Source of the DNA: Chloroflexota bacterium
GTDB lineage: Bacteria; Chloroflexota; Dehalococcoidia; GIF9; AB-539-J10
Assembly: GCA_037444365.1 (NCBI GenBank)
Contig: JBBIMO010000003.1
Coordinates: 10,854-74,853 of the forward strand
DNA: 64,000 nucleotides
Reading direction: 5' to 3'
Shown here: positions 27,827 through 41,908 of the stretch, piece by piece
Layout: the number at the start of each line of letters is the position of its first letter
Numbering within the stretch: position 1 is the stretch's first letter
Position numbers and translations under genes: made by a program
The notes under the pieces: generated by a model
Seen by the model: the letters and a program-made list of their open reading frames with translations, nothing else
Databases searched by the model: none
What the model was told of the DNA's origin: nothing

Positions 27827-27918
27827 AGCTATCCCTGAAAAACACACCCATTTCGGAAGATTCATTTTACTTCATTTAGGTAAAGATTTGAAGAGGTCAA
27901 ACGAGGGGAGCTTCCCAC

Positions 27919-28500
27919 TTATCTCTTTGTTGCCCGCGCTATCTTATCGATTGCCGCATTAATGTCGCGCGATATGTCAACAACAAGATGGTTGCCTGAA
28001 ACCTTTTGCCTCCGCGACTTCATCTTGCTGTATACTTCCCACCCTGGTTCTGAGTCATCATCCATAGGTGCATTTTCCGTGCCAGAAGGTGGTGCCGCGC
28101 GGCCGCGGAGATAGCTTCAACCCGCACGGGAATGAGTCTTGCTCCAGCCCTCTGTGCAGGGCGGTAGAGATACTATCGGTGGCGCTCCAGCGAGTTAACA
28201 CCATCAAAGATGACGGGAATTCCCCTTCCCAACAGTTCCCCAATGGGCACGTGGCAGACAGGGGAGAGGTGCTTGGTTTCGTCTTCATTGGTCTGCGGAC
28301 AGGGAAACAAGGTTTTTCGTAGTCTGTCGCCGGCCAGGATGAAAAGAAGGCGTCTTTCCGCTAGATTGCGAAGGAAAAAGGGACTTCACAGTGCCCGGCG
28401 AACCATTGACCAGTGTGAATGGAGGCTCTATCTGCGTCTCAGGTAAGCGATCAAGACTTCGTCCTAACTTCTGTACGTCTTCATTAAGACTGTCTGCCAC
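27919..28500 (-). pseudogene. AAA_33 / P-loop kinase pseudogene
   Basis: degenerate Walker A (GSPGTVKS), frameshift into ...DRLRKTLFP...GIPVIFDGVN, in-frame TAG, second frameshift into WEVYSKMK...VDISRDINAAIDKI*. Confidence 0.72.
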
Positions 28501-28596
28501 ATATCACAATTCTGGTGACGAATCAGCTTGCAAATTGAAATGGTTTCCTTTTCGGTTTTTCGGCATCAATGGCGGGCAGATCTGCGATATTTGAAC

Positions 28597-29670
28597 CTAC
28601 GGCTTCGTTAACCCGACAGTGTTAAGGAATGCAGCCACCACAACTGGATCGAACTGACTCCCAGCACAACGCTTGATTTCCTCTACAATGTCCGTGATGG
28701 ACATTGCTGACCGATACGGTCGGTCGGACATCATAGCATCAAAAGCATCGGCTAAAGACAGAATTCTGGCACCCATTGGTATGTCATCCCCCATGATGGT
28801 TTGATTCAGTCCTCTACCGTCATAACGGTCATGGTGGTGCTCAACCATCTCAACTATTCTCGCATTAACCACCGGCCGCACAATATCGGCACCCACCTGC
28901 ACATGAGTCATAATGTGCTCGTATTCCTCGTGTGTTAGCTTACCAGGCTTGTTCTGCACACTTGGGTCAACCGCGATCTTACCTATATCGTGTAGCAGGC
29001 TCGCCCAGCGTAAATCGTCCATACTCTGCGCAGGCAGGCCAAGCTCATTGCCCAGAGCCAACGCTATTTCAGTCACGCGGCGAGAATGTCCGCCGGTGTA
29101 CTTGTCCTTAGCCTCCAATGCAGATACCAACGCTTCGATCGCACCCCAGAAGAGCTCCTTGATCTCTCTTGTCTGCTCTTCAATCCTCTCCTCCAAGTAT
29201 TGCTGATACTCCCTTATCTCAAGCTGCAGGTGCCTTCTTTCCAGCGCTCTCTTGACTGCTAGAGAAAGCTCCTCCAGGTTGAAAGGCTTGCAGATATAGT
29301 CATCGGCGCCCTGCTTCAGACACTCAACGGCAACGTTAATCTCACTAATAGCCGTAACCATAATAACGGCCGTGTCAGGGTACCCGCACTTTATTTCGGG
29401 GAGGAGTTCAGTTCCTGACTTGCCAGGCATCTTAATATCCAGAACAACCACGGCAATCGCATTGGTCTCCAGCGTATTCAGGGCTTGTTCAGCATTGCCT
29501 ACTTCTTCACACTGGTAGCCTTCTGCTGTCAGCCTCTGCCGAATAAGCCTCCTGATTGGGGCTTCGTCATCTACGATGAGCAGCATTTCTGGACGGTTAG
29601 CCATACCCCCGTTCCTTCCTAGCCAATCTACCTTCGCCAACTGTTCTAGCTCACTTTCGTCTTTGCCCAT
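28597..29670 (-). CDS. response regulator with HD-GYP-type phosphohydrolase domain (RpfG-like)
   Basis: REC (IVDDE, LDIKMPG, KP) plus KDKYTGGHS, LLHDIGK, HHHDRYDG, ADAFDAM, RPYR; TAATG coupling to the kinase. Confidence 0.92.
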   Translation of the reverse strand: MGKDESELEQLAKVDWLGRNGGMANRPEMLLIVDDEAPIRRLIRQRLTAEGYQCEEVGNAEQALNTLETNAIAVVVLDIKMPGKSGTELLPEIKCGYPDTAVIMVTAISEINVAVECLKQGADDYICKPFNLEELSLAVKRALERRHLQLEIREYQQYLEERIEEQTREIKELFWGAIEALVSALEAKDKYTGGHSRRVTEIALALGNELGLPAQSMDDLRWASLLHDIGKIAVDPSVQNKPGKLTHEEYEHIMTHVQVGADIVRPVVNARIVEMVEHHHDRYDGRGLNQTIMGDDIPMGARILSLADAFDAMMSDRPYRSAMSITDIVEEIKRCAGSQFDPVVVAAFLNTVGLTKP

Positions 29671-31925
29671 TATGACACCTTCCTGTCGCCGCTAACCTGT
29701 CCTTCTGTACACGTTATCTGGGGTCGGCTGACGTAAGTAGGCAATTCCACAATAATAGTGGCTCCTTTGCCGGGCCGGCTCACGGCGTATATATGCCCCC
29801 CGTGCTCGGTCACTATGCCGTGGCAGATACTCAACCCGAGCCCGGTTCCTTTGCCCGCCTCTTTAGTGGTGAAAAAGGGATCAAATATCCGCCGGACATT
29901 CTCCGGCGGAATACCCGGCCCATCATCAGCAAAGGAAATCACCACTGCATCGTTCTGTTTTCTGGTGGTGATATTCAGGACTCCTTTGTCATGTGCCTTG
30001 ATCATGAAGTATTCGGCGTTGATGATGATGTTCATGCAAACCTGCTGCATCTGGAAATGATCCACCATGATTTCAGGCAGGTCCGGAGCAAGATGTGTCT
30101 GGATTTCGATACCATTAACCTTGTGTTCATAAGCACGCAATTTCAGCACATCCTCAATGATGCCATTCATCTGGCTCAGTCGCTTCACAGGTGCCTGCTT
30201 CCGGGCAAACGTAAGAAGATTATTGGTGACACTGGCTGCACGCTGAGCCTGGCTGTTGATAAGCCTCAGGTCCTCACGGATATCGTCGGGGAGTTCCTTC
30301 TGCATAAGCAATTGTGAGAAACCGATAATGCTCGTCAGCGGATTGTTGAGTTCGTGGGCGGCGCCTGCTGCCAACTCGCCAACACAGGCCAGCCGCTCAG
30401 TCAGCATAAGCCGCTCGTTTTGCCGCTTCTGCTCAGTAATATCGATAAAAGAAACCAGGCCCGCTAATCTGCCCTCATGCACAATCCTCACACCTGTCAC
30501 ACTCACCCACATTTCCCTCCCACCTCTGGTCACCACTCGCAACTCCAGAGCCCGCCGCAAGTCTTGTTCAACCAGCCCCTTTGACATAAGCTCACGAACC
30601 TTCTCCCGGTCCTCAGGAGAGAAGAAATCGAGCGGATTTGCACCAATGACCTCCTCTGTGGAACTAAATCCAAGAGTTTTGGCAGCGGCTTGATTAGCCA
30701 TCACTACTCTGAGAGCTTCGATGTCAACAACGACCGTGCCAGTGACCGTACTGTCAAACAAAGCTCTATACTTCTCCTCGCTTTGTCGCAATGCCACCTC
30801 CATCGTCCTGCGGTCGGTGACATCGCGTCCAACGCCTCGGAACCCGATGATCTGCCCCTTCTCATTTCGCAGCGGAGAGACGGATGCTTCCACAAACCCG
30901 CGAGTCCCATCTTTGTGGATGACTCTCCAGGGAAACCCTTTGTTTGGTATGCCAGTCTTGTACACTTTGTTAAAGACTTCATATACTGATTGGGCATCAT
31001 CCACAGCCGTGATTTTTTTGTAGCTCATGCCCACCAACTCTTCCCTGGAGTATCCCAGGTTGCGACACACGGCACTATTGAAGAAGGCAAAGTGTCCGCC
31101 GACATCAACCTCAAAATAGCTATCTTCCATCTCCTCCAGAATAGTGCGATACCTCTCTTCAGACTGCCTCAGCGCCTCTTCAATCTGCCTACGCTCAGTG
31201 ACATCCATAGTAATCACATAGACGACCTCTTTGCCTGAAGTCTTCGCGGGTACCACTACGTGGTGGAAGTGTCTTCCCGCTCTTTCGTCCTCGAAAACCT
31301 GGGCTTGCCATTCATCCAAGACCTTTCTCACATTTGCCAGTCGGCGCTGCGCAATCTCCTGAGGCGTCACCTCGAACAACGTCTTGCCAATCACTTCTTC
31401 CAAAGGAATCCCAAGGCTTCTGGCAACTGCAGGATTCGCAGCAAGGTGTCTTCCCTCTCTATCCAGTTGTGCGATGCAATCCGGGGAAGTCTCAAATAGC
31501 AGGCGGTACTTGTGTTCAGACTCTTCCAGATTTTCCTCTAACTGCATCCTCCCGGTGACTTCCATGTAATTCCCCAGAATTGCTGGCCTTCCACGGTACC
31601 GGACGGATTTGACCGCGGCCATGACCCAAACGATTGTGCCGTCCTTGCAGGTCACCCTGAATTGATAGGGCGAAAGCAGCTTTCCCTTCAACATCCTTAT
31701 CGTATTTTCTCTGACCATCCTTCTATGTTGAGGCACCACAAAATCCAGAGCATCCTTACCTATCAGTTCATCCGCCGTGTAGCCCACGGCGATTGGGAAG
31801 GCGGAATTGACATAGCAGAATGTTCCATCCTGGATGATACAGACACCTGCCGGCATTTCCTCGCTGAAGGTTCTGAGCATTCCGTCCTCGTTCGCGGACC
31901 TGACCACAGATCTTGCTGATTTCAT
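29670..31925 (-). CDS. cytoplasmic multi-PAS sensor histidine kinase
   Basis: four PAS/PAC repeats (SEERYR-type linkers), AHELNNPL, DDGPG, FDPFFTTK, GTGLGL; no TM helix. Confidence 0.93.
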   Translation of the reverse strand: MKSARSVVRSANEDGMLRTFSEEMPAGVCIIQDGTFCYVNSAFPIAVGYTADELIGKDALDFVVPQHRRMVRENTIRMLKGKLLSPYQFRVTCKDGTIVWVMAAVKSVRYRGRPAILGNYMEVTGRMQLEENLEESEHKYRLLFETSPDCIAQLDREGRHLAANPAVARSLGIPLEEVIGKTLFEVTPQEIAQRRLANVRKVLDEWQAQVFEDERAGRHFHHVVVPAKTSGKEVVYVITMDVTERRQIEEALRQSEERYRTILEEMEDSYFEVDVGGHFAFFNSAVCRNLGYSREELVGMSYKKITAVDDAQSVYEVFNKVYKTGIPNKGFPWRVIHKDGTRGFVEASVSPLRNEKGQIIGFRGVGRDVTDRRTMEVALRQSEEKYRALFDSTVTGTVVVDIEALRVVMANQAAAKTLGFSSTEEVIGANPLDFFSPEDREKVRELMSKGLVEQDLRRALELRVVTRGGREMWVSVTGVRIVHEGRLAGLVSFIDITEQKRQNERLMLTERLACVGELAAGAAHELNNPLTSIIGFSQLLMQKELPDDIREDLRLINSQAQRAASVTNNLLTFARKQAPVKRLSQMNGIIEDVLKLRAYEHKVNGIEIQTHLAPDLPEIMVDHFQMQQVCMNIIINAEYFMIKAHDKGVLNITTRKQNDAVVISFADDGPGIPPENVRRIFDPFFTTKEAGKGTGLGLSICHGIVTEHGGHIYAVSRPGKGATIIVELPTYVSRPQITCTEGQVSGDRKVS

Positions 31926-31937
31926 TCGTTAGCCCTT

Positions 31938-32156
31938 CTAGTTCCTCCCGGTCACAGCAGAAACGCAGCTGGTTCTTGTCTTGATAGCCTCCACTTGAGC
32001 AAGGCTGAATAGCCGCCATCCTCGCCAGTCCCGGTACTCAACATCAGACACTTTGCCTTCCTTCAGCCATTTGAACAGGGTGTTTCTGCTGATGCCAACC
32101 ATCCGGCAGACCTCGGCCGTCCGGTAATATATTTGGCCATCAATCACAATAGACAT
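31938..32156 (-). CDS. stand-alone MerR/excisionase-type helix-turn-helix protein
   Basis: YYRTAEVCRMVGISRNTLFKWLKEG...RDWRGWRLFS; 72 aa with no effector domain. Confidence 0.8.
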   Translation of the reverse strand: MSIVIDGQIYYRTAEVCRMVGISRNTLFKWLKEGKVSDVEYRDWRGWRLFSLAQVEAIKTRTSCVSAVTGRN

Positions 32157-32193
32157 GGCTTTTTCCAATGAGAATACTCAACTATGCCAGAAC

Positions 32194-32224
32194 ATACTAT
32201 GACGCACATGTAGGTGAGTGTCAA
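32194..32224 (-). promoter_or_regulatory. promoter of the HTH-kinase-HD-GYP operon
   Basis: TTGACA with CATAGT at 17 nt or TAGTAT at 19 nt spacing. Confidence 0.5.
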
Positions 32225-32290
32225 TCACCCATTTGTACCGGTTACTCTGTTACTTTGGTCCTAGCCTGTTCAGAGACTCCCCGGTTGGTT

Positions 32291-32310
32291 TGATATCTGA
32301 TATCTGATAT
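32291..32310. repeat. heptamer tandem repeat (TGATATC)x~3
   Basis: tgatatc tgatatc tgatat. Confidence 0.7.
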
Positions 32311-32591
32311 GGGGCACTGGCCTTGTTTCCTCAACCTTCTGTTCAGGCTGCCCACAAGTGGAGATGCTTCTTCGCATTCCAGACAAAGAGACTGTAATAC
32401 CGTAATAATGGTAACGGCTCGCCAAATCACCCCGTTTCTGCCTTGATCGCCTCGCATGTGCCCTGCAGGGCGGCTGTAATTGCACCATTCCCTGCTGGGC
32501 TGCCTCTTTCCGATGGAAAGAAATCCGGAAATAACCTTTTGTCTGACCCCGCCTAGAGGAACATAGGGCTTACCAAGATACTGAGAGCAAC

Positions 32592-32620
32592 TTGACAGCA
32601 CAGCAGATATATGCTAGATG
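32592..32620 (+). promoter_or_regulatory. putative pha operon promoter
   Basis: perfect TTGACA, 17-nt spacer, TGc-TAGATG (weak -10). Confidence 0.45.
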
Positions 32621-32653
32621 TATATAGGTGCAGCTAAGACGAAGGGGACTAAC

Positions 32654-33118
32654 GTGACAAAGCATAATAATGATGGTGATAAGGGAACGGAGGGCCTTGG
32701 ATCACCTAGAGAGATGCCCAGGGATTTCCTGACGCCATGGTTGTTGCTGCTCCTGCATAACTGGAATATGCACGGCTACCAGCTCATGCAGATGATGACA
32801 ATCTCTGGATTGGCATCCTTCGACCCAACTACCGTGTACAGGGCACTGCGGCGACTTGAGGAAGAAGGGCTGGTAATCTCAGGTTGGGAGACGGGCGACA
32901 GTGGCCCAGCCAAACGCGTCTATTCTATTACAGAAGCGGGAGAGAAACTCCTAGGAACCTGGACCTCAGCGCTGAAGGAATACCAGGGCATACTCGATAG
33001 ATTTTTTGAGCTTTATGCGGAGGCAAAGCAGGCTCGCCGTCCAAAGAAGCCAAGAAAGCCCTCGGGCCAGTCTACCATTAATGATCAAGCAAAAGGAGGC
33101 AAGGACAATGAATGGTGA
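32654..33118 (+). CDS. phaQ: PadR-family PHB-responsive repressor, PhaQ-like
   Basis: MPRDFLTPWLLLLL.NWNMHGYQL..VYRALRRLE..W.T..GPAKRVYSIT..YQ..LDRFFELY resembles Bacillus PhaQ; first gene of the pha cluster; GTG 32654 after GAAGGGG. Confidence 0.8.
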   Translation: MTKHNNDGDKGTEGLGSPREMPRDFLTPWLLLLLHNWNMHGYQLMQMMTISGLASFDPTTVYRALRRLEEEGLVISGWETGDSGPAKRVYSITEAGEKLLGTWTSALKEYQGILDRFFELYAEAKQARRPKKPRKPSGQSTINDQAKGGKDNEW

Positions 33119-33392
33119 ACAGGTACCCAAGCAGCTCCTGGGGATGTGGAAAGGTTCCTGGGAGACCTACGTCAAGACACTAAAAGCCGCAGGGGAGCAG
33201 AGCGACCGCATGTTGGACATCATGCTACAGCAAAGTGAGGCCCTTCAGGAAGAGACGAAGAAGCTGATCAAGGAGTGGGCTAGTAACTACAGAAAGATTA
33301 GCAGAAGCTACCTGGATGCTGTTGAGCAGAACGTTAGCAAGATCGTAGAGACGCTGGAGCCAAAGGAGAAACCAAAGGAAAGAAAGGGCTAG
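33108..33392 (+). CDS. phasin-like PHA granule protein
   Basis: 94-aa amphipathic all-helical protein; SD AAGGAGG; overlaps the phaQ stop, as in the phaQP order. Confidence 0.65.
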   Translation: MNGEQVPKQLLGMWKGSWETYVKTLKAAGEQSDRMLDIMLQQSEALQEETKKLIKEWASNYRKISRSYLDAVEQNVSKIVETLEPKEKPKERKG

Positions 33393-33441
33393 GCACTGAA
33401 TCAAGTCGCTTGTTGCTGATAGCGCAAAGACATAGCCAGGA

Positions 33442-33942
33442 GTGCCGACCGAAGGTACGCCAGCAGAAATGCAGCCAGCAGACTCGCGTTTACTGAAGTG
33501 GTGGGGAGAGTTGCTCATTGGTTGTGCCGCGAATCTTGAAGTACTGAAGCGACTCACTGGGACCGGGGTGGGGACTGAGCAATGGTATGACCTCTGGAAG
33601 TCTGTCCCCGGGGTTCCGGAGCCACCCCTTCCTATTGAGGACGTTGACGAGGCACAACGGATGTGGCTGGCAATATTCGGTGCCGTGCCTCGCCGTGATT
33701 ATGACAATCTTAAGGGACGGCTGGCTGTGGTCGAAGAGGAATGTGAGAAGTTAAGGAGCGCTTTGAACCAGGTTACGCAGGCTATGACGGGTTTGAAGAA
33801 CCTTCCGGAGACAATGGCTCCTTGGCTCCAACTCGCCCAGATGACGATCAACAATCATATGGACTGGCTGAGTGAGTTGGGGAAGAGCTGGCAAGCAGAC
33901 AAAGATAGCCGCCCGGCAAGCGAGGACACAGACTGTTCCTGA
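33442..33942 (+). CDS. hypothetical protein in the pha operon (Trp-rich, coiled coil)
   Basis: FGAVPRRDYDNLKGRL..EEECEKLR coiled-coil motif; same strand, inside the cluster; start uncertain (33442 or 33469). Confidence 0.65.
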   Translation: MPTEGTPAEMQPADSRLLKWWGELLIGCAANLEVLKRLTGTGVGTEQWYDLWKSVPGVPEPPLPIEDVDEAQRMWLAIFGAVPRRDYDNLKGRLAVVEEECEKLRSALNQVTQAMTGLKNLPETMAPWLQLAQMTINNHMDWLSELGKSWQADKDSRPASEDTDCS

Positions 33943-34048
33943 TAAGAAGTGATGTGCCGGGCCTCTGAACTTGTGGCTTGATTGTTGTACGAAACCACCT
34001 GTATCTTTCCTAGCACTGCATAGCAAATAAATAGAAGGATGTGAATCA

Positions 34049-35212
34049 TTGGAAAAACAGACACAACAACCGATAGACGTTGCATCATTGTGGTTCGAGT
34101 GGCAGCGTAACCTCTGGGAAAATTGGATAACTGCCACCGTCAAAGGAACAGAGTCAGCCCAGTCGATGTGGCAAGGGCGCGCTGCCTTGGACATGCTTAC
34201 CGCGTGGCAACAGACCTGGTCGAAATCACTCCCGGCGGTATTTCTCGGGAAAGAGCCACCTGACGGCCTTGGAGCCACTGTCTACAAGCGGTTGTTGGAT
34301 GCCTCCAATGTCTATACCAATCTGCTGGCTTTCTGGGCCAGGTCTTCTATGCTGTTCGCACAGCTGACACCAGGCACCACACCGACCACGGAAAAACTGA
34401 AGGAGATCTATGACGAGTGGGTTAAGGAATATGAAACTGCTATGAGTTCACTCTGGGGCGCTTATTTTCCCAGGGATGCTGAAGAAACGGTCAAGGCTTA
34501 TCAGAGTGCTACTTCTGCTTCCGCTGAATCCGCCTGGATCTTCATGGAACCGTTGCTACGAAACTTGGAACGGCTTCCTGCGATACTAACCAAAATAGCC
34601 AAAGGAGATCCTGGAGCCAGTATCGAACTGACAGGACTGTGGCGGAAGAACTACGAGCTTACACTTGGCAAGGCGCTACGGGCCCCCTCAATGGGCTCTT
34701 TCCGCGAGTTCGCCGAGAAGGTGAACCAGACTGCGGATGCTTATGTTCATTACAACGTAGCTCTCGCTCAGTATTTTGGGCTCTTCTACCAGAGTGCAAT
34801 GGGCGCTGCGGAGAAGGTATTCCAGCGCCTCAGTGAGCTGAAGACCCAGGAGGTCACCCCTGAGACCCTGCGCGAGTCCTACCGCACTTGGTGGACAATC
34901 AACGAAGACGTATTCAATCAGATGTTCAGGTCTGAGGAGTTTACTAGGCTACTTGGAGAAACACTGCGGCAGGGACTCCTCTTCAAGAAGCAGCTGGATG
35001 ACCTCTCAGATGAGATTACGAAGTTCACCAACCTGCCCACTAAGCAAGATATGGATGAGATATATAGGACCATCTACGAGCTGAGAAAAGAGGTTCGCTG
35101 GCAAAGACGTGCAGTGAGAGACCTGGAACGGCGCCTGGGAACCGTTGGCGCCAAAGCCGAGTCGGGCAACAAGGTAAGCAGGACGTCTATACGTCGTTCC
35201 AAGAGAGAATAG
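34049..35212 (+). CDS. phaE: class III PHA synthase subunit PhaE
   Basis: Trp-rich helical protein; PhaE box-like NLPTKQDMDEIYRTIYELRKEVR; YRTWWTINEDVF..FRSEEF; directly upstream of phaC. Confidence 0.88.
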   Translation: MEKQTQQPIDVASLWFEWQRNLWENWITATVKGTESAQSMWQGRAALDMLTAWQQTWSKSLPAVFLGKEPPDGLGATVYKRLLDASNVYTNLLAFWARSSMLFAQLTPGTTPTTEKLKEIYDEWVKEYETAMSSLWGAYFPRDAEETVKAYQSATSASAESAWIFMEPLLRNLERLPAILTKIAKGDPGASIELTGLWRKNYELTLGKALRAPSMGSFREFAEKVNQTADAYVHYNVALAQYFGLFYQSAMGAAEKVFQRLSELKTQEVTPETLRESYRTWWTINEDVFNQMFRSEEFTRLLGETLRQGLLFKKQLDDLSDEITKFTNLPTKQDMDEIYRTIYELRKEVRWQRRAVRDLERRLGTVGAKAESGNKVSRTSIRRSKRE

Positions 35213-35235
35213 TGCGTGGTCAAGGAGAGTTCGAT

Positions 35236-36444
35236 ATGAGCGACAATGTCATAGAGGTAATGGCTAAGGAATCAGCAAGAGTGCAGCAGAAGCTCTTGAA
35301 GGGACTGCAGAACGTGTTGCAAGTCAAGGATGTGGAGACCGGTGCAACGCCCAAGGAGACAGTGTACCAGGAGGACAAGGTCAAGCTCTACCACTACAGG
35401 CCGGCGGGAAAGAGCATCGTTCCGGTGCCGCTGTTGGTGGTCTATGCTCTGGTCAATCGTCAGTATATGATGGATCTCCAGCAAGACCGATCCCTGTTCA
35501 GAAAGCTACTTGAGGCTGGCATCGACCTCTATGTAATTGACTGGGGTTATCCGTCAAAGATGGACAAATACCTGACAATGGAAGACTATATTCTGGGCTA
35601 TCTCGACAATATCGTCAACTTTGTGCGTGAGCGGACAGGCAACGATAAAATAAACGTTATGGGCGTTTGCCAAGGCGGGACATTCGCATTCATATACTCT
35701 GCGCTTCTTCCCCAGAAGGTGAGAAATCTGGTGCTGATGGTTGCACCCATAGATTTTGATACTCGTGATGGACTACTCAACGTCTGGTCCAAAGTCATGG
35801 ATGCTGACCTGATGGTAGATGTCATGGGGAACATACCGGGCGAATTCATGAACCTGGGATTCCTGTGGCTTAAGCCTTTCCAGCTCATTCTCGACAAGTA
35901 TGTGGGGCTACTGGACAACATTGATGACCCTGATGTTGTACAGAACTTCCTCCGCATGGAAAAGTGGATATTTGACTCTCCGGACCAAGCTGGGGAAACA
36001 ATCCGAAAGTTCGTCAAAGATCTCTATCAGGAAAACAAATTGATCAAGGGTGAACTGATCCTGGGTGGTCGCAGAGTCGATCCTAGGAAGATTACTATGC
36101 CCATACTGAACATCTATGGAGAGCAGGATCATTTGGTGCCACCACACTGCTCCTGCTGCGTCGAAAAAGTGGTCGGAAGTAAGGACGTAACCACCAAGGC
36201 TTTCCCTCTGGGGCACATCGGAATGTACGTGAGCTCCAGGTCGCAGAATGATATAGCACCTACAGTCTCGCGATGGCTGACTGCAAAGTCAGCTGTCGCT
36301 CCAGAGGCTGGAAAAGCAATCAGACCCCAACGCATCGTTTCGCGAACAAGGCCGCAGACCGCAGGAAAAGGAACAACCAGAGGCACGAAGCAGAAGAGCC
36401 GGAGAAGAGCGACGGCTTTTGAAGCTTCGCCCTCGGAGGAGTAA
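35236..36444 (+). CDS. phaC: class III PHA synthase subunit PhaC
   Basis: GATPKE, PLLVVYALVNRQYMMDLQ, IDWGYP, lipase box GVCQGG, FLRMEKWIFDSPDQAGE, catalytic D (EQDHLVP) and H (GHIG); SD AAGGAG. Confidence 0.96.
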   Translation: MSDNVIEVMAKESARVQQKLLKGLQNVLQVKDVETGATPKETVYQEDKVKLYHYRPAGKSIVPVPLLVVYALVNRQYMMDLQQDRSLFRKLLEAGIDLYVIDWGYPSKMDKYLTMEDYILGYLDNIVNFVRERTGNDKINVMGVCQGGTFAFIYSALLPQKVRNLVLMVAPIDFDTRDGLLNVWSKVMDADLMVDVMGNIPGEFMNLGFLWLKPFQLILDKYVGLLDNIDDPDVVQNFLRMEKWIFDSPDQAGETIRKFVKDLYQENKLIKGELILGGRRVDPRKITMPILNIYGEQDHLVPPHCSCCVEKVVGSKDVTTKAFPLGHIGMYVSSRSQNDIAPTVSRWLTAKSAVAPEAGKAIRPQRIVSRTRPQTAGKGTTRGTKQKSRRRATAFEASPSEE

Positions 36445-36528
36445 TGGCGGAGCACTCTAGGGACAGGCAAATGCTTCGCTACTACGGGACTTGATACAGA
36501 ACTGGCGAGACCGAGGAGACATACAATT

Positions 36529-36951
36529 ATGAAAGGCAAGACAATCCATGAGATCAAGGTGGGTGACGCCGCTGAGCTCACTAAAACCGTCACCGACGCG
36601 GACGTGGTGCTTTTTGCCGGGATCACAGGTGACTTCAACCCGGCTCATGTGAATCAGGTCTGGGCTGCCAGCACGCGCTTTCGCGGGAGAATTGCCCACG
36701 GGATGTTGTCGGGCGGAATGATCTCTGCAGTTTTAGGCATGTACCTGCCCGGACCAGGTACAATCTATCTGTCACAGGAATTGCGATTTCTCGCCCCGGT
36801 TCATATCGGCGACACGATTACCGCACGAGTGGAAGTACAGGAATTGATTAAGGAAAAGAATCGAGTGCGCCTACGAACTACCTGCCAGAATCAGGATGGC
36901 GTCATCGCGGTTGACGGCACGGCTATTGTCTTAGCACCGGCCACGACTTGA
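36529..36951 (+). CDS. phaJ: MaoC-family (R)-specific enoyl-CoA hydratase
   Basis: hydratase-2 motif FAGITGDFNPAH, RIAHGML, PGPGTIY, FLAPV; last gene of the pha cluster. Confidence 0.88.
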   Translation: MKGKTIHEIKVGDAAELTKTVTDADVVLFAGITGDFNPAHVNQVWAASTRFRGRIAHGMLSGGMISAVLGMYLPGPGTIYLSQELRFLAPVHIGDTITARVEVQELIKEKNRVRLRTTCQNQDGVIAVDGTAIVLAPATT

Positions 36952-37189
36952 GAATACGTAGCGTGTAAACGGACACCCTTCCTCAAGAGCCATTGGGCGG
37001 CAGTTGGCAGATGAGCACGGATTCTGAGTGCACCTTGCACCAAGAGGTAGTATGAACTGCTGAGGAGACTTCGCTGTTGTTCCAGGCTGTTCTGCCTATA
37101 CCCCAGAAGGCCAAGATGCACAGAACCACAGTGCAGCCGGAGATTCCCTCCTTGAGGCAGCGGGAAGCGTTGCGGTGGCAGCCACGATC

Positions 37190-39178
37190 TCATGGCGAAA
37201 TCAGTTCCTCATCTTTTCTTAGTTCGATTATGCGGTCGCGAATCATGGCGGCTTTCTCAAACTCCAGATTCCTGGCTGCTGCTTTCATCTGGGATTCCAG
37301 TTGTTTGATAAGTTGAGCTATCTCCTCCTTGGGAACAGGAGCAGCCAAATAAGGCACCCTTGTCTCAGCTACTGCTTGGACTCTCTCAGCTATGTCCTTG
37401 ATTGCCTTTCTGATTCCCTGGGGAGTTATGCCGTGTTCCCTGTTATAGGCTTCCTGAACCTGGCGCCGCCGCCACGTCTCATCAATTGCCCTTTGCATTG
37501 ACCGGGTAATGTTATCGGCATACATAATTACATGGGCATTTATGTGTCTGGCAGCACGTCCCATAGTCTGAATAAGCGCCTCCTCAGACCTGAGATACCC
37601 TTCCTTGTCGGCATCCAGTATGGCTACCAGACTCACCTCGGGCAAGTCCAGGCCCTCACGGAGAAGATTGATTCCCACCACCACATCATAGACGCCAAGA
37701 CGGAGGTCGCGCAGAATCTCCACTCGCTCCAGGGTCTCTACCTCCGAATGCAGGTAATGAGTCTTAATCTCCATCTCTCTCAAGTAGTCGCTCAATTCCT
37801 CTGCCATTCGCTTCGTCAAGGTAGTCACCAAACAACGCTCGCCTTTAGCGACTCTGTTTCTTATCTGATGGATCAAATCATCAATCTGTCCCTTAACCGG
37901 CTTGACTTCCACCGTAGGCTCCAGTAGCCCAGTGGGCCGGACTAACTGCTCCACTACCTGCTGGCTGCGCTCATATTCATAGGGCTTGGGTGTAGCAGAG
38001 ACATAGATAACCTTATTGATGTGCTTGCCAAACTCCTCAAAATTCAGTGGGCGGTTATCCAAGGCTGAGGGGAGGCGAAAGCCGTAGTCAACCAGTGTTT
38101 GCTTGCGGGCAATATCACCGTGGTACATACCCCTTATTTGCGGCAGGGTCATATGTGACTCATCGATGAACAACAGGAAGTCATCAGGAAAGTAATCGAG
38201 CAAAGTCCAGGGAGTGCTTCCCCGTGCCCGCCGCTGGAGATGTCGGGAGTAGTTCTCCACTCCGCTGCAGTATCCCACCTCCTGAAGCATTTCGATATCG
38301 TAGTTGGTTCGCGCTTCAAGCCTCTGAGCTTCCAGTAGCTTTCCCTGCCTTCTTAACTCCTTCAGCCTTTCCTCCAGCTCGACCTTAATATCCCCGATGG
38401 CTGCCAGCAGTTTTTCGCGAGAGGTGACAAAGTGCTTGGCAGGGTAAATATCCACCTGTTCGCGCTCAGCCAGCACTTCACCGGTTAGAGTGTCAACCTC
38501 CACGATACACTCTACCCTGTCTCCCCAGAATTCGATCCTGAGTGCTGTCTCCTGATAGGCAGGCTGAATCTCCAGGGAATCGCCCCTGATTCGGAACTTC
38601 CCTCTCGTGAAATCATAGTCATTCCTCTCATACTGCATATCCACCAAGCGGCGCAGCAGCTTGTCTCGCTTGTAGTGTTTGTCCCTTTCCATAGTAAGAG
38701 CAAAGCCATGATACTCCTCAGGGGCACCCAAGCTATAAATACAGGAGACCGAAGCTACAATGACCACATCCCGGCGAGTGAAAAGCGACATAGTAGCGGA
38801 GTGTCGCAGTTTGTCAATCTCCTCATTTATGTCAGTTTCCTTTTCAATATACAGATCCGTGCTGGGGATATAGGCCTCAGGCTGATAGTAATCATAGTAG
38901 CTGACAAAATACTCCACGGCATTCTCGGGAAGAAATTCCTTGAACTCCGTTGCTAGCTGAGCAGCCAGAGTCTTGTTGTGACAAATAACCAAGGTTGGCC
39001 TCTGTATCCTCTCAATGACGTTAGTCATGGTGAAAGTCTTGCCACTGCCCGTGACTCCCAGCAACGTCTGTTCTCGGTAGCCTTTGTTCAAGCCCTCGAC
39101 CAGTTTGTCTACCGCTTGAGGCTGGTCGCCGGTAAGATGAAAATCGGAGACTATTCTAAACCGGGGCATCGCGTTCAC
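37190..39178 (-). CDS. uvrB: excinuclease ABC subunit B
   Basis: [40 protein letters not shown]. Confidence 0.98.
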
Positions 39179-39353
39179 TCACCTTTCACAAAAGCAACAA
39201 CTATCAATATATAGGAAACTGGAGAATCTTGCACAACCGAAAGAAGGACATCTTTACAGAAGTCGTTTCAGATCGGGATATTGCTTCAGATGTCAAGCTA
39301 TGCTATAATTGTGCATAGTCAATATGCAATACGAATGAAAGGAAACCGACTAC

Positions 39354-39596
39354 ATGAAGTCCTACGAGGAACTTGTTAGAGAGCAGGGGAAGAGAGAAGG
39401 TAGTTTCTTGTCCGATGTGGGGGAGTTGTCTGATTTTGAGAACAACCTGGGTCAGAGGCGAGACGAAATCCTGTTCAAGATAACCACTGAGATGGAAGAT
39501 ACCAGGAATGCCCTTAGTCAGGTTGAGCAACTCGCTCAGAGGCTCAGGAAGTATCTTGACCGGCTAAAGAACATATATCAGACTCTCTCTAAGTAA
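39354..39596 (+). CDS. hypothetical coiled-coil protein
   Basis: 80-aa heptad-rich ORF; SD AAAGGA; TGCTATAAT at 39301-09. Confidence 0.65.
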   Translation: MKSYEELVREQGKREGSFLSDVGELSDFENNLGQRRDEILFKITTEMEDTRNALSQVEQLAQRLRKYLDRLKNIYQTLSK

Positions 39597-39622
39597 GGTA
39601 AGGTCACGCAAAATACAGTGTA

Positions 39623-41086
39623 ATGCAATCTGAGTCGGAAACATCGGTTAGAGTCCGTTTTGCCCCGAGTCCCACAGGGTATCCACATTTAGGTAACATC
39701 AGGACAGCTCTATTCAACTGGCTTTTTGCTCGCCACCACGGCGGCACGTTCATCCTAAGAATTGAAGATACAGACATTGCGCGTAAAGTGGAGGATGCGG
39801 TGGAAGTGATTCTGGGTAGCTTGCGGTGGCTGGGATTAGACTGGGATGAAGGGCCTTACCTCCAATCACAACGCTTGCTCACCTATCGTGAATTTGCCCA
39901 CAAATTGCTTGATGAGGGGCATGCATATTCATGCTACTGCTCCCCAGAGCGATTGGAGACCATGCGTCAAGAACAGGTGCAACGTAAGCAGCCACCGAAA
40001 TATGATCGCCACTGTCGAGATCTGACACAACATGAAAGAACAAAGGTAGAGGCATCAGGTATTACCCCAGTAGTCCGATTCAAAACTCCTCTCGAAGGTG
40101 AAACTACTTTCTATGACCTAATCTACGGACAGGTGACTTTCAAGCACGATACCTTAGACGACTTCGTTCTGCTCAAGTCCGATGGTTATCCCACGTACCA
40201 CCTAGCTAATGTAGTGGATGACCACTTGATGGCTATCTCACACGTGCTAAGAGCCGAGGAGTGGCTCTCGAGCACTCCTCGCCATGTCTTGCTTTATCGG
40301 GCCCTAGACTGGCAACCTCCGCATTTTGCTCACCTGCCTATGATACTAGGACCTGACCGGGCCAAGCTATCCAAGAGACACGGGGCCACCAGTATTCAGG
40401 AATACCAGACACAAGGTTATCTCCCGGAGGCTATGGTCAACTTCCTGGCGCTTCTGGGCTGGTCTCTTGACGATCGAACCGAGCTAATATCTCGAGAAGA
40501 ACTGACAAAACACTTCTCTCTGGAAAGGGTAGGGAAAACAGCGGCTATCTTCAACAAAGACAAGCTGGAATGGATGAATGGGGTTTATTTGCGGAAGCTG
40601 AGCGCGGCGGAATTTGTCCGCCATGCCATGCCGTTTATGGATAGAGCTCTGCCAAAGTTGACGGCGTGTCCATTGGATCAGAATTACGTCAGCCAGGCTC
40701 TGTCGCTCATTCAAGAACGAGCCAGAACCCTAGCTGAGGTTCCTGAGCTTGCCAGTTTTTTCTTTTCCGACGAGCTGCAATATGATAGAGGCTTGCTTCT
40801 GAAGGGGAGGATGGATGTCAAATCGGCAGCTACGGCTGTCACAATTGCTGCACAGAAGCTGCGAGATATAGCGACCTGGGATGCTACCACGCTTGAAGGC
40901 ATGTTGCGCCCCTTGGCTGCAGAGCTAGACTTGAAAACAGGGAACTTCTTCGGACTGTTAAGGGTAGCTGTTACAGGACGTACTGCGGCGCCACCACTAT
41001 TTGAGACGATGGCAGTACTGGGAAAAGGAAGATGCCTGAGACGACTTGACTTGGCGTTGGAGTTGCTATCAACTTGTTTCAACTAG
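39623..41086 (+). CDS. gltX: glutamate--tRNA ligase
   Basis: RFAPSPTG, HLGN, RIEDTD, KLSKR. Confidence 0.97.
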   Translation: MQSESETSVRVRFAPSPTGYPHLGNIRTALFNWLFARHHGGTFILRIEDTDIARKVEDAVEVILGSLRWLGLDWDEGPYLQSQRLLTYREFAHKLLDEGHAYSCYCSPERLETMRQEQVQRKQPPKYDRHCRDLTQHERTKVEASGITPVVRFKTPLEGETTFYDLIYGQVTFKHDTLDDFVLLKSDGYPTYHLANVVDDHLMAISHVLRAEEWLSSTPRHVLLYRALDWQPPHFAHLPMILGPDRAKLSKRHGATSIQEYQTQGYLPEAMVNFLALLGWSLDDRTELISREELTKHFSLERVGKTAAIFNKDKLEWMNGVYLRKLSAAEFVRHAMPFMDRALPKLTACPLDQNYVSQALSLIQERARTLAEVPELASFFFSDELQYDRGLLLKGRMDVKSAATAVTIAAQKLRDIATWDATTLEGMLRPLAAELDLKTGNFFGLLRVAVTGRTAAPPLFETMAVLGKGRCLRRLDLALELLSTCFN

Positions 41087-41186
41087 AATGCCAAGTCTAG
41101 CTTAGCAGCTGTTTTCCTGGAGGTCTTGTGTAGCTTACCAGAGTGCTCGGAACCGACAATCTCCTGTTCAGAAAGCGTAAAGGGTA

Positions 41187-41202
41187 TTGACAAAGCTTTG
41201 TC
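41187..41202 (+). promoter_or_regulatory. -35 box overlapped by a perfect 14-bp palindrome
   Basis: TTGACA 41187-92; GACAAAGCTTTGTC 41189-41202. Confidence 0.5.
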
Positions 41203-41248
41203 CTTATAGTAACAATATAGGTGGAGCGAAATCAAAAAGGAGGGCACA

Positions 41249-41392
41249 ATGGCAACAGCTTATTGCATGAAGTGCAGGAAGAAGAGGGAGATAGCCAGCC
41301 CAAGGCGGGTTATGCTCAAGAATCGCAGACCAGCCACCCAAGGTGTATGCCCTGTCTGCGGCACAAAGGTATTCAGAATAGAGAAGCGCTAA
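41249..41392 (+). CDS. DUF5679-like 47-aa basic Zn-ribbon protein (absent from the ORF track)
   Basis: MATAYCMKCRKKREIASPRRVMLKNRRPATQGVCPVCGTKVFRIEKR; two CxxC; SD AAGGAGG. Confidence 0.85.
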   Translation: MATAYCMKCRKKREIASPRRVMLKNRRPATQGVCPVCGTKVFRIEKR

Positions 41393-41908
41393 GCATCTGC
41401 ATCACCCTGCTCTCTGAGGAGTCGTGCTCTTCTGGTGATGTCACCGGTGGTTGCGTGAACTCCACAGGACAGATGGGCTAGCCCTCTGGGGTATTGTTAC
41501 CCTGAGGATAGTTGTCCTAGTTTTGAGCAATAGCTCCTGGAAGCGGAGAATGCCGGGGTGCTGTTGTCTCTTACAGTCTACGGTCTTGTCAGTTGTCGCC
41601 CGGATCTCCTGCATCCCATATCCTTTGCAACACTTTTCAGGCTTCCCGCCAGGACTTTTCTGATACCTTTATGACGATACGCCAGCAGACACATTGCCAC
41701 TCGGAGGCGCGTGATTGTGGTTGGATGTCCTGAGATCGGGCTCAATGTTGCCTATTGCAATCGCCCCTCCAGAGTTCTTCTCTCGTTTCCTGGTTCCTGT
41801 GGGCCGGTCTATGTTCATATCTCTGCCATCTCCCGGATTCCGTCTCGATCCTGCAACCACAGACAAGAGCTTTTCATTCACCGTGACTTAGGGTAAACTT
41901 TAGCGAAT

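What the first reader, a model, noticed from the sequence alone, without database searches (positions are those of the whole stretch)
32654..36951. Hybrid polyhydroxyalkanoate operon (phaQ-phasin-orf-phaE-phaC-phaJ) in a probable Dehalococcoidia genome
Seen: six co-oriented genes with SDs or overlaps, and a PhaC with an intact Cys-Asp-His triad. Known: PhaQ/PhaP regulation was described in Bacillus with class IV PhaRC synthases, whereas class III PhaEC is typical of Allochromatium, cyanobacteria, sulfate reducers and haloarchaea. Inference: this locus joins a Bacillus-type regulator and phasin to a class III synthase plus an extra unknown subunit, in an anaerobic lineage I do not know to store PHA. 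It is the best candidate here for an undescribed system.
Basis: partly seen in the sequence, partly recalled or inferred. Interest (0 to 1): 0.85.

Follow-up and report, generated by a model that had tools for sequence, protein, structure and literature searches.

The report
Acquired PHA storage operon in Dehalococcoidia
A small subsurface Dehalococcoidia-type bacterium carries an apparently intact six-gene operon for making the storage polyester PHA, which looks like a horizontal insertion because none of the related species in its genus that were searched has it, and which pairs a PhaQ-like repressor and an unnamed helper protein with a class III synthase.

Summary
Six co-oriented genes lie at 32654-36951: a PhaQ-like PadR repressor, a small phasin-like protein, orf3 of no known family, class III PhaE and PhaC (Cys-Asp-His intact), and a MaoC/PhaJ hydratase.

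The contig is not chimeric. Both flanks are syntenic with same-genus genomes, where only 143-236 bp separate them, and independent contigs of the likely source run bridge both junctions. The operon is therefore a ~4.8 kb insertion between a small HTH gene and uvrB. PhaC was found in 0 of 51 other genus genomes and in 4 of 119 family genomes.

The architecture is not unique. phaQ-phasin-(orf3)-phaE-phaC recurs in one other genome of the family, one other of the class, and at least 16 of 80 metagenome contigs. PhaQ-like genes accompany PhaC in 53 of 64 PhaC-positive class genomes, mostly as class IV-like phaQ-phaR-phaC. The orf3-phaE-phaC(-phaJ) core is shared with Syntrophales MAGs.

orf3 is a small all-helical family. 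Predicted contact with PhaEC has only weak support, and orf3 is missing from 2 of 7 clade members.

Most likely function: PHA synthesis fed from beta-oxidation enoyl-CoA through PhaJ. I found no paper describing PhaQ with class III synthases or PHA synthases in Dehalococcoidia. Verdict: a new variant of a known kind, of moderate interest.

The parts
32364..37193 (.). Inserted segment (~4.8 kb) carrying the whole operon. It is absent from the same-genus genomes compared.
   Evidence: window DNA 27000-42000 was compared with 40 same-genus genomes. Among the listed matches the flanks match at 68-86% identity and nothing matches between about 32365 and 37190 (236 weaker matches were not listed); homology to G053, G056 and G045 ends at 32268-32363 and resumes at 37194-37209, with only 236, 197 and 143 bp between the flanks in those genomes. 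GC is 0.51-0.53, the same as the flanks.
32592..32631 (+). Promoter/operator region upstream of phaQ: TTGACA at 32592-32597, a degenerate -10, and one intact operator half-site (32618-32631).
   Evidence: in the alignment of the window with 11 related loci, the -35 TTGAC is invariant and N17, CATAAT or TATAAT and the palindrome are closely conserved in the 10 loci with PhaQ identity of 73% or more; inverted-repeat arms of 13-16 nt are 85-94% complementary in L213, L109 and L110, but no inverted repeat is detected in the window. By my reading the window's arms are 9 of 14 complementary; the simple promoter scan did not flag this site.
32654..33118 (+). phaQ-like PadR-family repressor (154 aa, GTG start).
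   Evidence: TIGR02719 129.5 bits, below the 139.35 cut-off. 96 homologues, some named by their sources as coming from Chloroflexota or Dehalococcoidia.
33108..33392 (+). Small phasin-like protein (94 aa) with a basic tail.
   Evidence: 12 of 18 family members hit PF05597 Phasin below threshold (best E 7.6e-4) and 5 of 18 hit Phasin_2. One JGI record names a homologue as a phasin; the nearest Atlas clusters are unnamed.
33469..33942 (+). orf3: a conserved, all-helical accessory protein of about 157 aa with no known family (an alternative GTG start lies at 33442).
34049..35212 (+). phaE, the class III PHA synthase subunit E (387 aa, TTG start).
   Evidence: Its C-terminal part also hits PhaR TIGR02132 weakly (E 1e-5).
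35236..36444 (+). phaC, the class III PHA synthase catalytic subunit (402 aa from ATG 35236; the ORF opens at GTG 35212), with a basic C-terminal tail of about 50 aa.
36529..36951 (+). phaJ-like MaoC-type (R)-specific enoyl-CoA hydratase (140 aa).
   Evidence: A GDFNPAH hydratase motif is visible in the translation (the motif itself is recalled, not from a call).
31938..32168 (-). Left flank: a small HTH gene, followed by a PAS histidine kinase and a response regulator with an HD domain. These are native, not part of the insert.
   Evidence: 67-73% identical copies in G053, G056 and G045. (Pfam gave no family for the small gene; the HTH reading is mine).
37190..39178 (-). Right flank: uvrB, native.

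Best explanation
This is an apparently functional PHA storage operon that was acquired horizontally. PhaE and PhaC form a class III heteromeric PHA synthase. PhaJ hydrates enoyl-CoA from the host's large beta-oxidation gene set to (R)-3-hydroxyacyl-CoA, which is the synthase substrate, so no PhaB reductase is needed. The small phasin-like protein and probably orf3 coat or organise the granule; orf3 may touch PhaC. The PhaQ-like PadR protein represses the operon from a palindromic operator that overlaps the promoter and, by analogy with Bacillus megaterium PhaQ, is titrated off by the polymer.

The cassette is a mosaic. The phaQ-phasin front end is typical of PHA loci in this Chloroflexota class. 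The orf3-phaE-phaC(-phaJ) core is shared with Syntrophales. It landed as one ~4.8 kb piece between a small HTH gene and uvrB in this one lineage of its genus.

Shown here: gene identities, intact catalytic residues, purifying selection, the insertion, the recurrence of the gene order, and the host's beta-oxidation genes. Inferred: polymer synthesis, substrate routing through PhaJ, PhaQ's response to the polymer, and the role of orf3.
For: Family assignments and the catalytic triad.

Purifying selection: dN/dS of 0.09-0.23 for five genes against G344.

Insertion: the flanks are syntenic and adjacent in same-genus genomes. PhaC was found in 0 of 51 other genus genomes and in 4 of 119 family genomes, G000 included. 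In run X1, which may be the source sample, Logan contigs span 31607-33810 and 33793-38000 without a difference, at an even depth of about 8. A 157-bp contig of a second sample (X2) crosses 32309-32465.

Cassette recurrence: G344 has phaQ-phasin-orf3-phaE-phaC at 72-83% identity in a different genomic context. G099 has phaQ-phasin-phaE-phaC. 16 of 80 metagenome loci found with PhaQ carry PhaE downstream in class III order, and 6 of 80 carry orf3.

PhaC tree: a clade with SH-aLRT 100 holds the window, G344, G281, two metagenome contigs and two Syntrophales MAGs (48 of the 118 available rows were used). In the PhaQ tree the rows cluster by the synthase type next to them (3 label changes against a shuffled mean of 11-13.5).

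Operator: a palindrome conserved across related loci overlaps the -10.

Host metabolism: 13 acyl-CoA dehydrogenase matches, 5 crotonase, 3 3-hydroxyacyl-CoA dehydrogenase, 2 thiolase over cut-off, no PhaB over cut-off, no reductive dehalogenase.

Analogy: Syntrophomonas wolfei, an anaerobic beta-oxidiser, makes PHA and raises a PHA synthase, an acyl-CoA dehydratase and PhaR in syntrophic growth (PMC4324140, passages read). B. megaterium phaQ lies upstream of phaP and is co-transcribed with it (review PMC9049629, passages read).
Against: There is no experimental or RNA evidence.

In the window itself the operator's left arm and the -10 are degenerate. One search detects no inverted repeat, and by my reading the arms are 9 of 14 complementary. 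The promoter scan did not flag the site. Regulation, or even expression, of this copy may therefore be altered.

PhaQ (129.5 bits against 139.35) and PhaE (TIGR01834 95.6 against 154.95) fall below NCBIfam cut-offs. The phasin call rests on sub-threshold hits and on context.

No PHA depolymerase was found over cut-off, so how the polymer would be mobilised is unexplained.

The genome is a MAG (92.9% complete, 1.7% contamination). Run X1 may be the source sample, so its contigs are an independent assembly, not independent data.

The direction of transfer between Syntrophales and this family is unresolved: the tree has an open trifurcation.
Confidence: 0.75

Rival explanations
1. The cassette is ancestral to the family and was lost repeatedly. 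The window keeps an old locus rather than having gained a new one.
For: Three other family genomes in three other genera have a related PhaC (G344, G281, G463). The insert's GC equals that of the flanks. The nearest PhaC (83%) is in the same family.
Against: PhaC was found in 0 of 51 other genus genomes. The relatives have a tight gap of 143-236 bp at the exact site. G344 and G281 carry the cassette in different genomic contexts. Syntrophales sequences sit inside the same PhaC clade.
Confidence: 0.12
2. Assembly or binning artefact: the pha genes belong to another organism (for example Syntrophales) and were joined to a Dehalococcoidia contig by mistake.
For: The nearest named PhaC sequences of full length are from Syntrophales MAGs (72% and 67%). 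PhaC was found in no other genome of the genus.
Against: Both flanks on the same contig are syntenic with same-genus genomes. Logan contigs bridge both junctions at an even depth of about 8, and a second sample's contig crosses the left junction. PhaQ, the phasin, orf3, PhaE and PhaC are 72-83% identical to those of a same-family genome. Composition is uniform.
Confidence: 0.03
3. The operon is silent or decaying in this host: it was acquired but is no longer properly expressed or regulated.
For: The left operator arm and the -10 are degenerate compared with 10 related loci. No depolymerase was identified.
Against: All six ORFs are intact and the catalytic residues are present. dN/dS is 0.09-0.23, although this averages over the whole divergence from G344 and cannot exclude recent relaxation.
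Confidence: 0.1
4. orf3 is a true third subunit of this clade's class III synthase, needed for activity, rather than a phasin-like accessory protein.
For: orf3 lies immediately upstream of phaE in 5 of 7 members of the PhaC clade, including two Syntrophales MAGs that lack phaQ and the phasin. Complex prediction of orf3 against PhaC plus PhaE gave weak support: score 0.45, best control 0.00 (that mark was reached by 58 of 80 solved complexes and 2 of 110 mismatched pairs, but at 0.60 or under by only 7 of those 80 and by both mismatches); the runs agree in at least 54% of contacts; partner pLDDT is at least 58; replacing PhaC gave 0.00.
Against: The tool itself says a pass this weak is more often wrong than right without a strong prior. 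L128 has no orf3, and in L110 a second phasin copy sits in orf3's place, so orf3 is dispensable within the clade. hhalign against PhaE gives 9% probability. There is no fold match.
Confidence: 0.2

Closest known systems
Class III PhaEC PHA synthase (as in Allochromatium vinosum and Synechocystis; these examples are recalled, while the family models TIGR01836 and PF09712 were tested)
   Same: Adjacent phaE-phaC. PhaC of about 400 aa scores over the TIGR01836 cut-off and has the Cys-Asp-His triad. PhaE scores over the Pfam cut-off.
   Different: It is preceded by a PhaQ-like repressor, a small phasin-like gene and orf3, and followed by phaJ, all in one operon. PhaE scores below the NCBIfam subfamily cut-off. 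PhaC has a basic C-terminal tail of about 50 aa. None of the 80 named-genome class III loci nearest to it had a PhaQ hit within 6 kb (0 of 80 at E<=1e-5).
Bacillus megaterium phaQ-phaP with class IV phaRBC (review PMC9049629, passages read)
   Same: A PadR-type PhaQ-like gene lies directly upstream of, and co-oriented with, a small phasin-like gene. In the related loci a palindrome overlaps the promoter, as expected for an autoregulated repressor.
   Different: The synthase partner is PhaE, not PhaR. All genes form one co-directional operon rather than two divergent ones. There is no phaB. The phasin is unrelated to the Bacillus PhaP models. PhaQ scores 10 bits below the equivalog cut-off.
Syntrophales MAG loci L008 and L009 (orf3-phaE-phaC, with phaJ in L008)
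   Same: The same PhaC clade (SH-aLRT 100). PhaC is 72% and 67% identical, PhaE 44% and 38%, orf3 32% and 40%, and phaJ 53% in L008.
   Different: No phaQ and no small phasin lie upstream. L008 has a different 215-aa protein, with no NCBIfam hit, downstream of phaJ.
Syntrophomonas wolfei PHA cluster Swol_1241-1244 (PMC4324140, passages read)
   Same: An anaerobic beta-oxidiser with a PHA synthase beside an acyl-CoA dehydratase and a PHA regulator; it is a functional analogue for storing beta-oxidation intermediates.
   Different: A different phylum and a differently named regulator (PhaR). I made no sequence comparison with it.

Membership tests
Class III PHA synthase, PhaC subunit | Scores over the curated TIGR01836 cut-off across the whole model | tested here: met
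   488.7 bits against 365.3, model positions 3-349 of 350; 489 bits in the genome search.
Class III PHA synthase, PhaC subunit | Lipase-box Cys plus the Asp and His catalytic residues | tested here: met
   C153, D306 and H335 are invariant in 118 of 118 aligned homologues. The Cys box and the Asp-His pair align with solved class I synthases. Which residues are catalytic is recalled knowledge.
Class III PHA synthase, PhaE subunit | An adjacent gene matching the PhaE models | tested here: inconclusive
   PF09712 129.3 bits against 25.7, which is met. TIGR01834 95.6 bits against 154.95, which is not met.
Class III PHA synthase | Polymerises (R)-3-hydroxyacyl-CoA | not testable with these tools
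   Needs expression and an enzyme assay.
PhaQ (PHB-responsive PadR repressor, TIGR02719) | Scores over the equivalog cut-off | tested here: not met
   129.5 bits against 139.35. None of 401 class genomes reaches the cut-off.
PhaQ (PHB-responsive PadR repressor, TIGR02719) | A PadR winged-helix domain, with the gene upstream of and co-transcribed with a phasin gene | tested here: met
   PadR 60 bits against 27. The gene overlaps the phasin-like gene by 11 nt. Co-transcription is inferred, not shown.
PhaQ (PHB-responsive PadR repressor, TIGR02719) | Autoregulation through an operator at its own promoter | tested here: inconclusive
   The palindrome overlapping the -10 is conserved in related loci, but it is degenerate in the window (one search finds none).
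PhaQ (PHB-responsive PadR repressor, TIGR02719) | Binds PHB granules and is released from DNA by them | not testable with these tools
   Needs EMSA and granule-binding assays.
Phasin (PF05597 / PF09361 / Bacillus PhaP) | Scores over a phasin model's cut-off | tested here: not met
   Phasin_2 15.7 bits against 24.9. 12 of 18 family members hit PF05597 only below threshold (best E 7.6e-4). No Bacillus PhaP model hit at E<=0.1.
PhaJ, (R)-specific enoyl-CoA hydratase | A MaoC dehydratase domain of about 140 aa with the hydratase motif | tested here: met
   PF01575 84.3 bits against 27. GDFNPAH is present in the translation; the motif definition is recalled.
Class IV PhaRC synthase | A PhaR small subunit (TIGR02132) beside PhaC | tested here: not met
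   Only the C-terminus of PhaE hits TIGR02132, at 25.6 bits against 148.4. orf3 gives no hit.

The most novel reading that the evidence does not exclude
orf3 defines an unrecognised third component of a class III-type PHA synthase complex. It contacts PhaC and is specific to a clade shared by Syntrophales and small-genome Dehalococcoidia. PhaQ-type control is the class-wide mode of PHA regulation in Dehalococcoidia, which would make PHA storage a mobile, plug-in trait of subsurface anaerobic beta-oxidisers.
Probability: 0.2. Interest if true: 0.6.

Novelty: new variant of a known kind. Interest (0 to 1): 0.45.

Why it matters
PHA regulation by PhaQ is described in print only for Bacillus with class IV synthases (review PMC9049629, passages read). 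A 2020 study of Chloroflexota stated that only Chloroflexales possess phaC (PMC7332563, passages read; its supplementary tables could not be seen).

The window adds a compact, self-contained class III version with an unnamed accessory protein, caught as a clean insertion into a 1.4 Mb genome.

If the operon is active, it would show that carbon and reductant storage can be gained as a single cassette by streamlined subsurface anaerobes. It would also offer a small and unusual synthase set (PhaE, PhaC, orf3, PhaJ) for study. All the parts are of known kinds, so the surprise for a specialist is moderate.

Tried and rejected
orf3 as a PhaE or PhaR paralogue: rejected on present evidence. hhalign gave 9% probability, and there was no TIGR02132 or Pfam hit.

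Fold of orf3: the AlphaFold2 model is all-helical with mean pLDDT 77.5. Foldseek against the PDB found no match at E<=0.001, so it says nothing about function.

Protein Atlas: only unnamed clusters for orf3 and the phasin. One cluster at score 0.85, in which 26% of members carry PF09712, is a lead only.

A profile of the phasin family against PDB sequences gave nothing below E 0.16.

Simple promoter and terminator scan: the counts are no higher than in shuffles, and the phaQ promoter was not flagged.

Expression: no RNA holder was listed among the sequencing runs. This is no evidence either way.

Contig cover in X2-X4 is patchy. Holes in it prove nothing.

Reductive dehalogenase: none found in a genome that is 92.9% complete.

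PHA depolymerase: no match over cut-off.

The literature search used badly chosen terms and returned only irrelevant papers.

The paper by Lee et al. 2004 on PhaQ is not held, so the B. megaterium operator could not be compared.

Supplementary Table S1 of PMC7332563 may list the genomes behind its 'only Chloroflexales' statement.

I did not run an AU test or a species-tree reconciliation, so the direction of transfer is left open.

G299 is an unpublished genome. It is one of the 64 PhaC-positive and one of the 57 PhaQ-positive genomes, and it is the source of locus L209. No claim depends on it alone.


Full report
**What is there**

One search lists six co-oriented ORFs between 32618 and 36951. 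Pfam and NCBIfam identify them as follows:

| Gene | Coordinates | Evidence |
|---|---|---|
| PhaQ-like PadR protein | 32654-33118 | PadR 60 bits (cut-off 27); TIGR02719 PhaQ 129.5 bits (cut-off 139.35) |
| Phasin-like protein, 94 aa | 33108-33392 | Only Phasin_2 at E 0.078 |
| orf3 | 33469-33942 | No family |
| PhaE | 34049-35212 | PF09712 129.3 bits (cut-off 25.7); TIGR01834 95.6 bits (cut-off 154.95) |
| PhaC | 35236-36444 | TIGR01836 488.7 bits (cut-off 365.3) |
| MaoC-type hydratase (PhaJ-like) | 36529-36951 | PF01575 84.3 bits (cut-off 27) |

The longer ORF from ATG 32618 begins inside the conserved operator.
- PhaC residues C153, D306 and H335 are invariant in 118 of 118 aligned homologues. 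The Cys box and the Asp-His pair align with solved class I synthases.
- Against the copies in genome G344, the five shared genes give dN/dS of 0.09-0.23.

**Whose genome it is**

- The window lies on contig C3 of a 1.42 Mb assembly of 39 contigs, 92.9% complete with 1.7% contamination.
- Its UvrB is 78% identical to that of a MAG titled 'uncultured Dehalococcoidales bacterium'. It is 60-63% identical to those of two Syntrophales MAGs and an Anaerolineales MAG.
- Sources name the nearest PhaQ homologues as coming from Chloroflexota or Dehalococcoidia bacteria.
- No reductive dehalogenase was found.
- The genome has 13 acyl-CoA dehydrogenase matches, 5 crotonase, 3 3-hydroxyacyl-CoA dehydrogenase and 2 thiolase over cut-off. 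No acetoacetyl-CoA reductase scores over cut-off.
- The runs that hold the sequence are labelled subsurface metagenome.

**Insertion, not chimera**

- I compared window DNA 27000-42000 with 40 same-genus genomes. Among the listed matches, both flanks match at 68-86% identity and nothing matches between about 32365 and 37190. A further 236 weaker matches were not listed.
- In G053, G056 and G045 the two flanks lie on one contig, 236, 197 and 143 bp apart. Homology to the window ends at 32268-32363 and resumes at 37194-37209.
- TIGR01836 found no PhaC at E<=1e-30 in 51 other genus genomes. It found one in 4 of 119 family genomes, the window's own included.
- In run X1, which may be the source sample, Logan contigs cover 31607-33810 and 33793-38000 without a difference, at a depth of about 8. 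A 157-bp contig of a second sample covers 32309-32465.
- GC content is the same in the insert and the flanks.
- The flanks hold native genes: a PAS histidine kinase, a response regulator with an HD domain, uvrB and leuS, plus an ORF at 39623-41086 that I read as gltX from its translation, without a family search.

**Recurrence of the gene order**

- Among the 80 named-genome loci nearest to this PhaC, covering many phyla, none had a PhaQ hit (0 of 80 at E<=1e-5). Only two Syntrophales MAGs had orf3; they carry orf3-phaE-phaC, with phaJ in L008.
- A metagenome scan with a PhaQ alignment returned 80 loci. In 16 of them PhaE follows in class III order, and 6 carry orf3. Many of the rest are short contigs that end after phaQ or the phasin gene.
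- In a sample of 401 genomes of the class, 64 have a PhaC-like match at E<=1e-30 and 5 score over the cut-off.
- The four other genomes over the cut-off are arranged as follows:
  - G344 (same family): phaQ-phasin-orf3-phaE-phaC at 72-83% identity, with other flanks and no phaJ.
  - G281 (same family): phasin-orf3-phaE-phaC-etfBA.
  - G099: phaQ-phasin-phaE-phaC.
  - G084: phasin-phaJ-phaE-phaC.
- The sub-cut-off PhaCs are class IV-like. In L199 the order is PhaQ-like (105 bits), PhaR-like (TIGR02132 65 bits) and PhaC (341.6 bits).
- Among 25 such loci, each with 1.5 kb flanks, 13 have PhaQ beside PhaC and 17 have the PhaR-like gene.
- PhaQ-like matches at E<=1e-20 occur in 57 of the 401 genomes. 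By my comparison of the two handle lists, 53 genomes have both genes, 11 have PhaC only and 4 have PhaQ only. Related genomes are not independent observations, so I claim no statistics from these counts.

**Trees**

- For the PhaC tree I chose 48 of the 118 available rows. These were 44 near or representative rows and 4 class IV-like outgroup rows; 70 rows were left out.
- A clade with SH-aLRT 100 holds the window, G344, L110, L128, G281 and the two Syntrophales MAGs. Inside it an open trifurcation leaves the direction of transfer unresolved.
- A second clade (SH-aLRT 99) holds the other PhaQ-linked class III PhaCs of the class.
- The PhaQ tree (40 rows, 128 columns) is weakly resolved. Its rows cluster by the synthase type beside them.
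- Together these support a mosaic: a class-typical phaQ-phasin front end joined to an orf3-phaE-phaC(-phaJ) core shared with Syntrophales. In its full form the cassette moves as a unit.

**Regulation**

- Upstream of phaQ in the 10 related loci with PhaQ identity of 73% or more, the motif TTGACA-N17-CATAAT (or TATAAT) is conserved. A palindrome is centred on the -10. Its arms of 13-16 nt are 85-94% complementary in L213, L109 and L110.
- The window keeps TTGACA (32592-32597), the right arm (32618-31) and a Shine-Dalgarno sequence before GTG 32654.
- The window's left arm and its -10 have diverged. One search finds no inverted repeat. By my reading the arms are 9 of 14 complementary.
- This counts against intact PhaQ control of this particular copy.

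**orf3 and the small protein**

- orf3 has 16 near homologues. Only 23 cluster representatives among 1.84 billion proteins match its profile at E<=0.001.
- It has no Pfam family. Its model is all-helical with mean pLDDT 77.5, and it has no fold match.
- hhalign against PhaE gives 9% probability.
- Complex prediction of orf3 against PhaC plus PhaE gave weak support:
  - The score was 0.45 and the best control 0.00. That mark was reached by 58 of 80 solved complexes and 2 of 110 mismatched pairs.
  - At 0.60 or under, the mark was reached by only 7 of those 80 solved complexes and by both mismatches.
  - The runs agree in at least 54% of contacts, and partner pLDDT is at least 58. My own alignments were used, so the calibration holds only roughly.
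- orf3 is missing from L128 and is replaced by a second phasin copy in L110.
- I therefore favour a granule- or synthase-associated accessory role over an obligatory subunit.
- The 94-aa protein has 33 homologues. 12 of 18 aligned members hit PF05597 Phasin below threshold, and 5 of 18 hit Phasin_2.

**Literature**

- The review PMC9049629 (passages read) describes PhaQ only for Bacillus, with phaQ upstream of phaP and co-transcribed with it.
- PMC7332563 (passages read) states that only Chloroflexales possess phaC among the Chloroflexota genomes it examined.
- PMC4324140 (passages read) reports that PHA metabolism is important in the syntrophic beta-oxidiser S. wolfei.
- PMC10406867 and PMC11704145 (one passage each) did not bear on the question.
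- No paper in the library holds PhaQ together with Chloroflex*, or Dehalococcoidia together with 'PHA synthase'. Searches for PhaQ+PhaE+polyhydroxyalkanoate, Dehalococcoidia+polyhydroxyalkanoate+PhaC, Dehalococcoidia+polyhydroxybutyrate and Chloroflexota+PhaE+PhaC returned nothing describing this arrangement (listings seen).
- The library lacks most subscription journals, so this is not proof that the arrangement is absent from print.

**Verdict**

This is a real, intact class III PHA operon under purifying selection. It entered this genome as a ~4.8 kb cassette. It has a PhaQ-like regulator, a phasin-like protein, an unnamed accessory protein and a PhaJ that fits the host's beta-oxidation metabolism.

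Noticed in passing
L199 (G254:C14:145917-149933) and 24 similar loci, L187-L211: Many larger genomes of the same class carry a class IV-like module, phaQ-like, phaR-like and phaC. In L199 the scores are TIGR02719 105 bits, TIGR02132 65 bits and TIGR01836 341.6 bits. PhaC-like genes occur in 64 of 401 sampled class genomes. This disagrees with the statement in PMC7332563 that only Chloroflexales have phaC within the Chloroflexota.
   Followed up: partly
window 36290-36444, 35150-35212, 33050-33118, 33360-33392: PhaC, PhaE, PhaQ and the phasin-like protein all end in short Lys/Arg/Pro-rich tails; the PhaC tail is about 50 aa. Similar tails appear in some homologues. Their role, for example nucleoid or polyanion binding, is unexplained.
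   Followed up: no
L212 (G281:C20) 8197-10014: In the same-family genome G281, two ORFs that I read by eye as electron-transfer flavoprotein genes etfB and etfA (no family search) follow the phasin-orf3-phaE-phaC cluster directly. If so, this links the cluster to acyl-CoA oxidation.
   Followed up: no
L008 7664-8311: The Syntrophales locus has a 215-aa protein with no NCBIfam hit directly after phaJ. It may be another granule-associated protein.
   Followed up: partly
L010 (1960-bp contig of a MAG titled Dehalococcoidales; genome G057): A partial PhaC 76% identical to the window's lies on a very short contig of a MAG whose UvrB is 78% identical to the window's. This may be a further carrier of the cassette, but the contig is too short to place.
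   Followed up: partly
window 28597-32168 (- strand): A small HTH gene, a histidine kinase with four PAS domains and a response regulator with an HD domain form a conserved signalling operon whose upstream region was split from uvrB by the insertion. The operon's promoter region (32169 to about 32363) is kept.
   Followed up: partly
G000:C6:3245-4009 and G000:C1:99356-99754: One crotonase match and one acyl-CoA dehydrogenase match elsewhere in the genome each contain a single in-frame TAG. I did not examine them.
   Followed up: no
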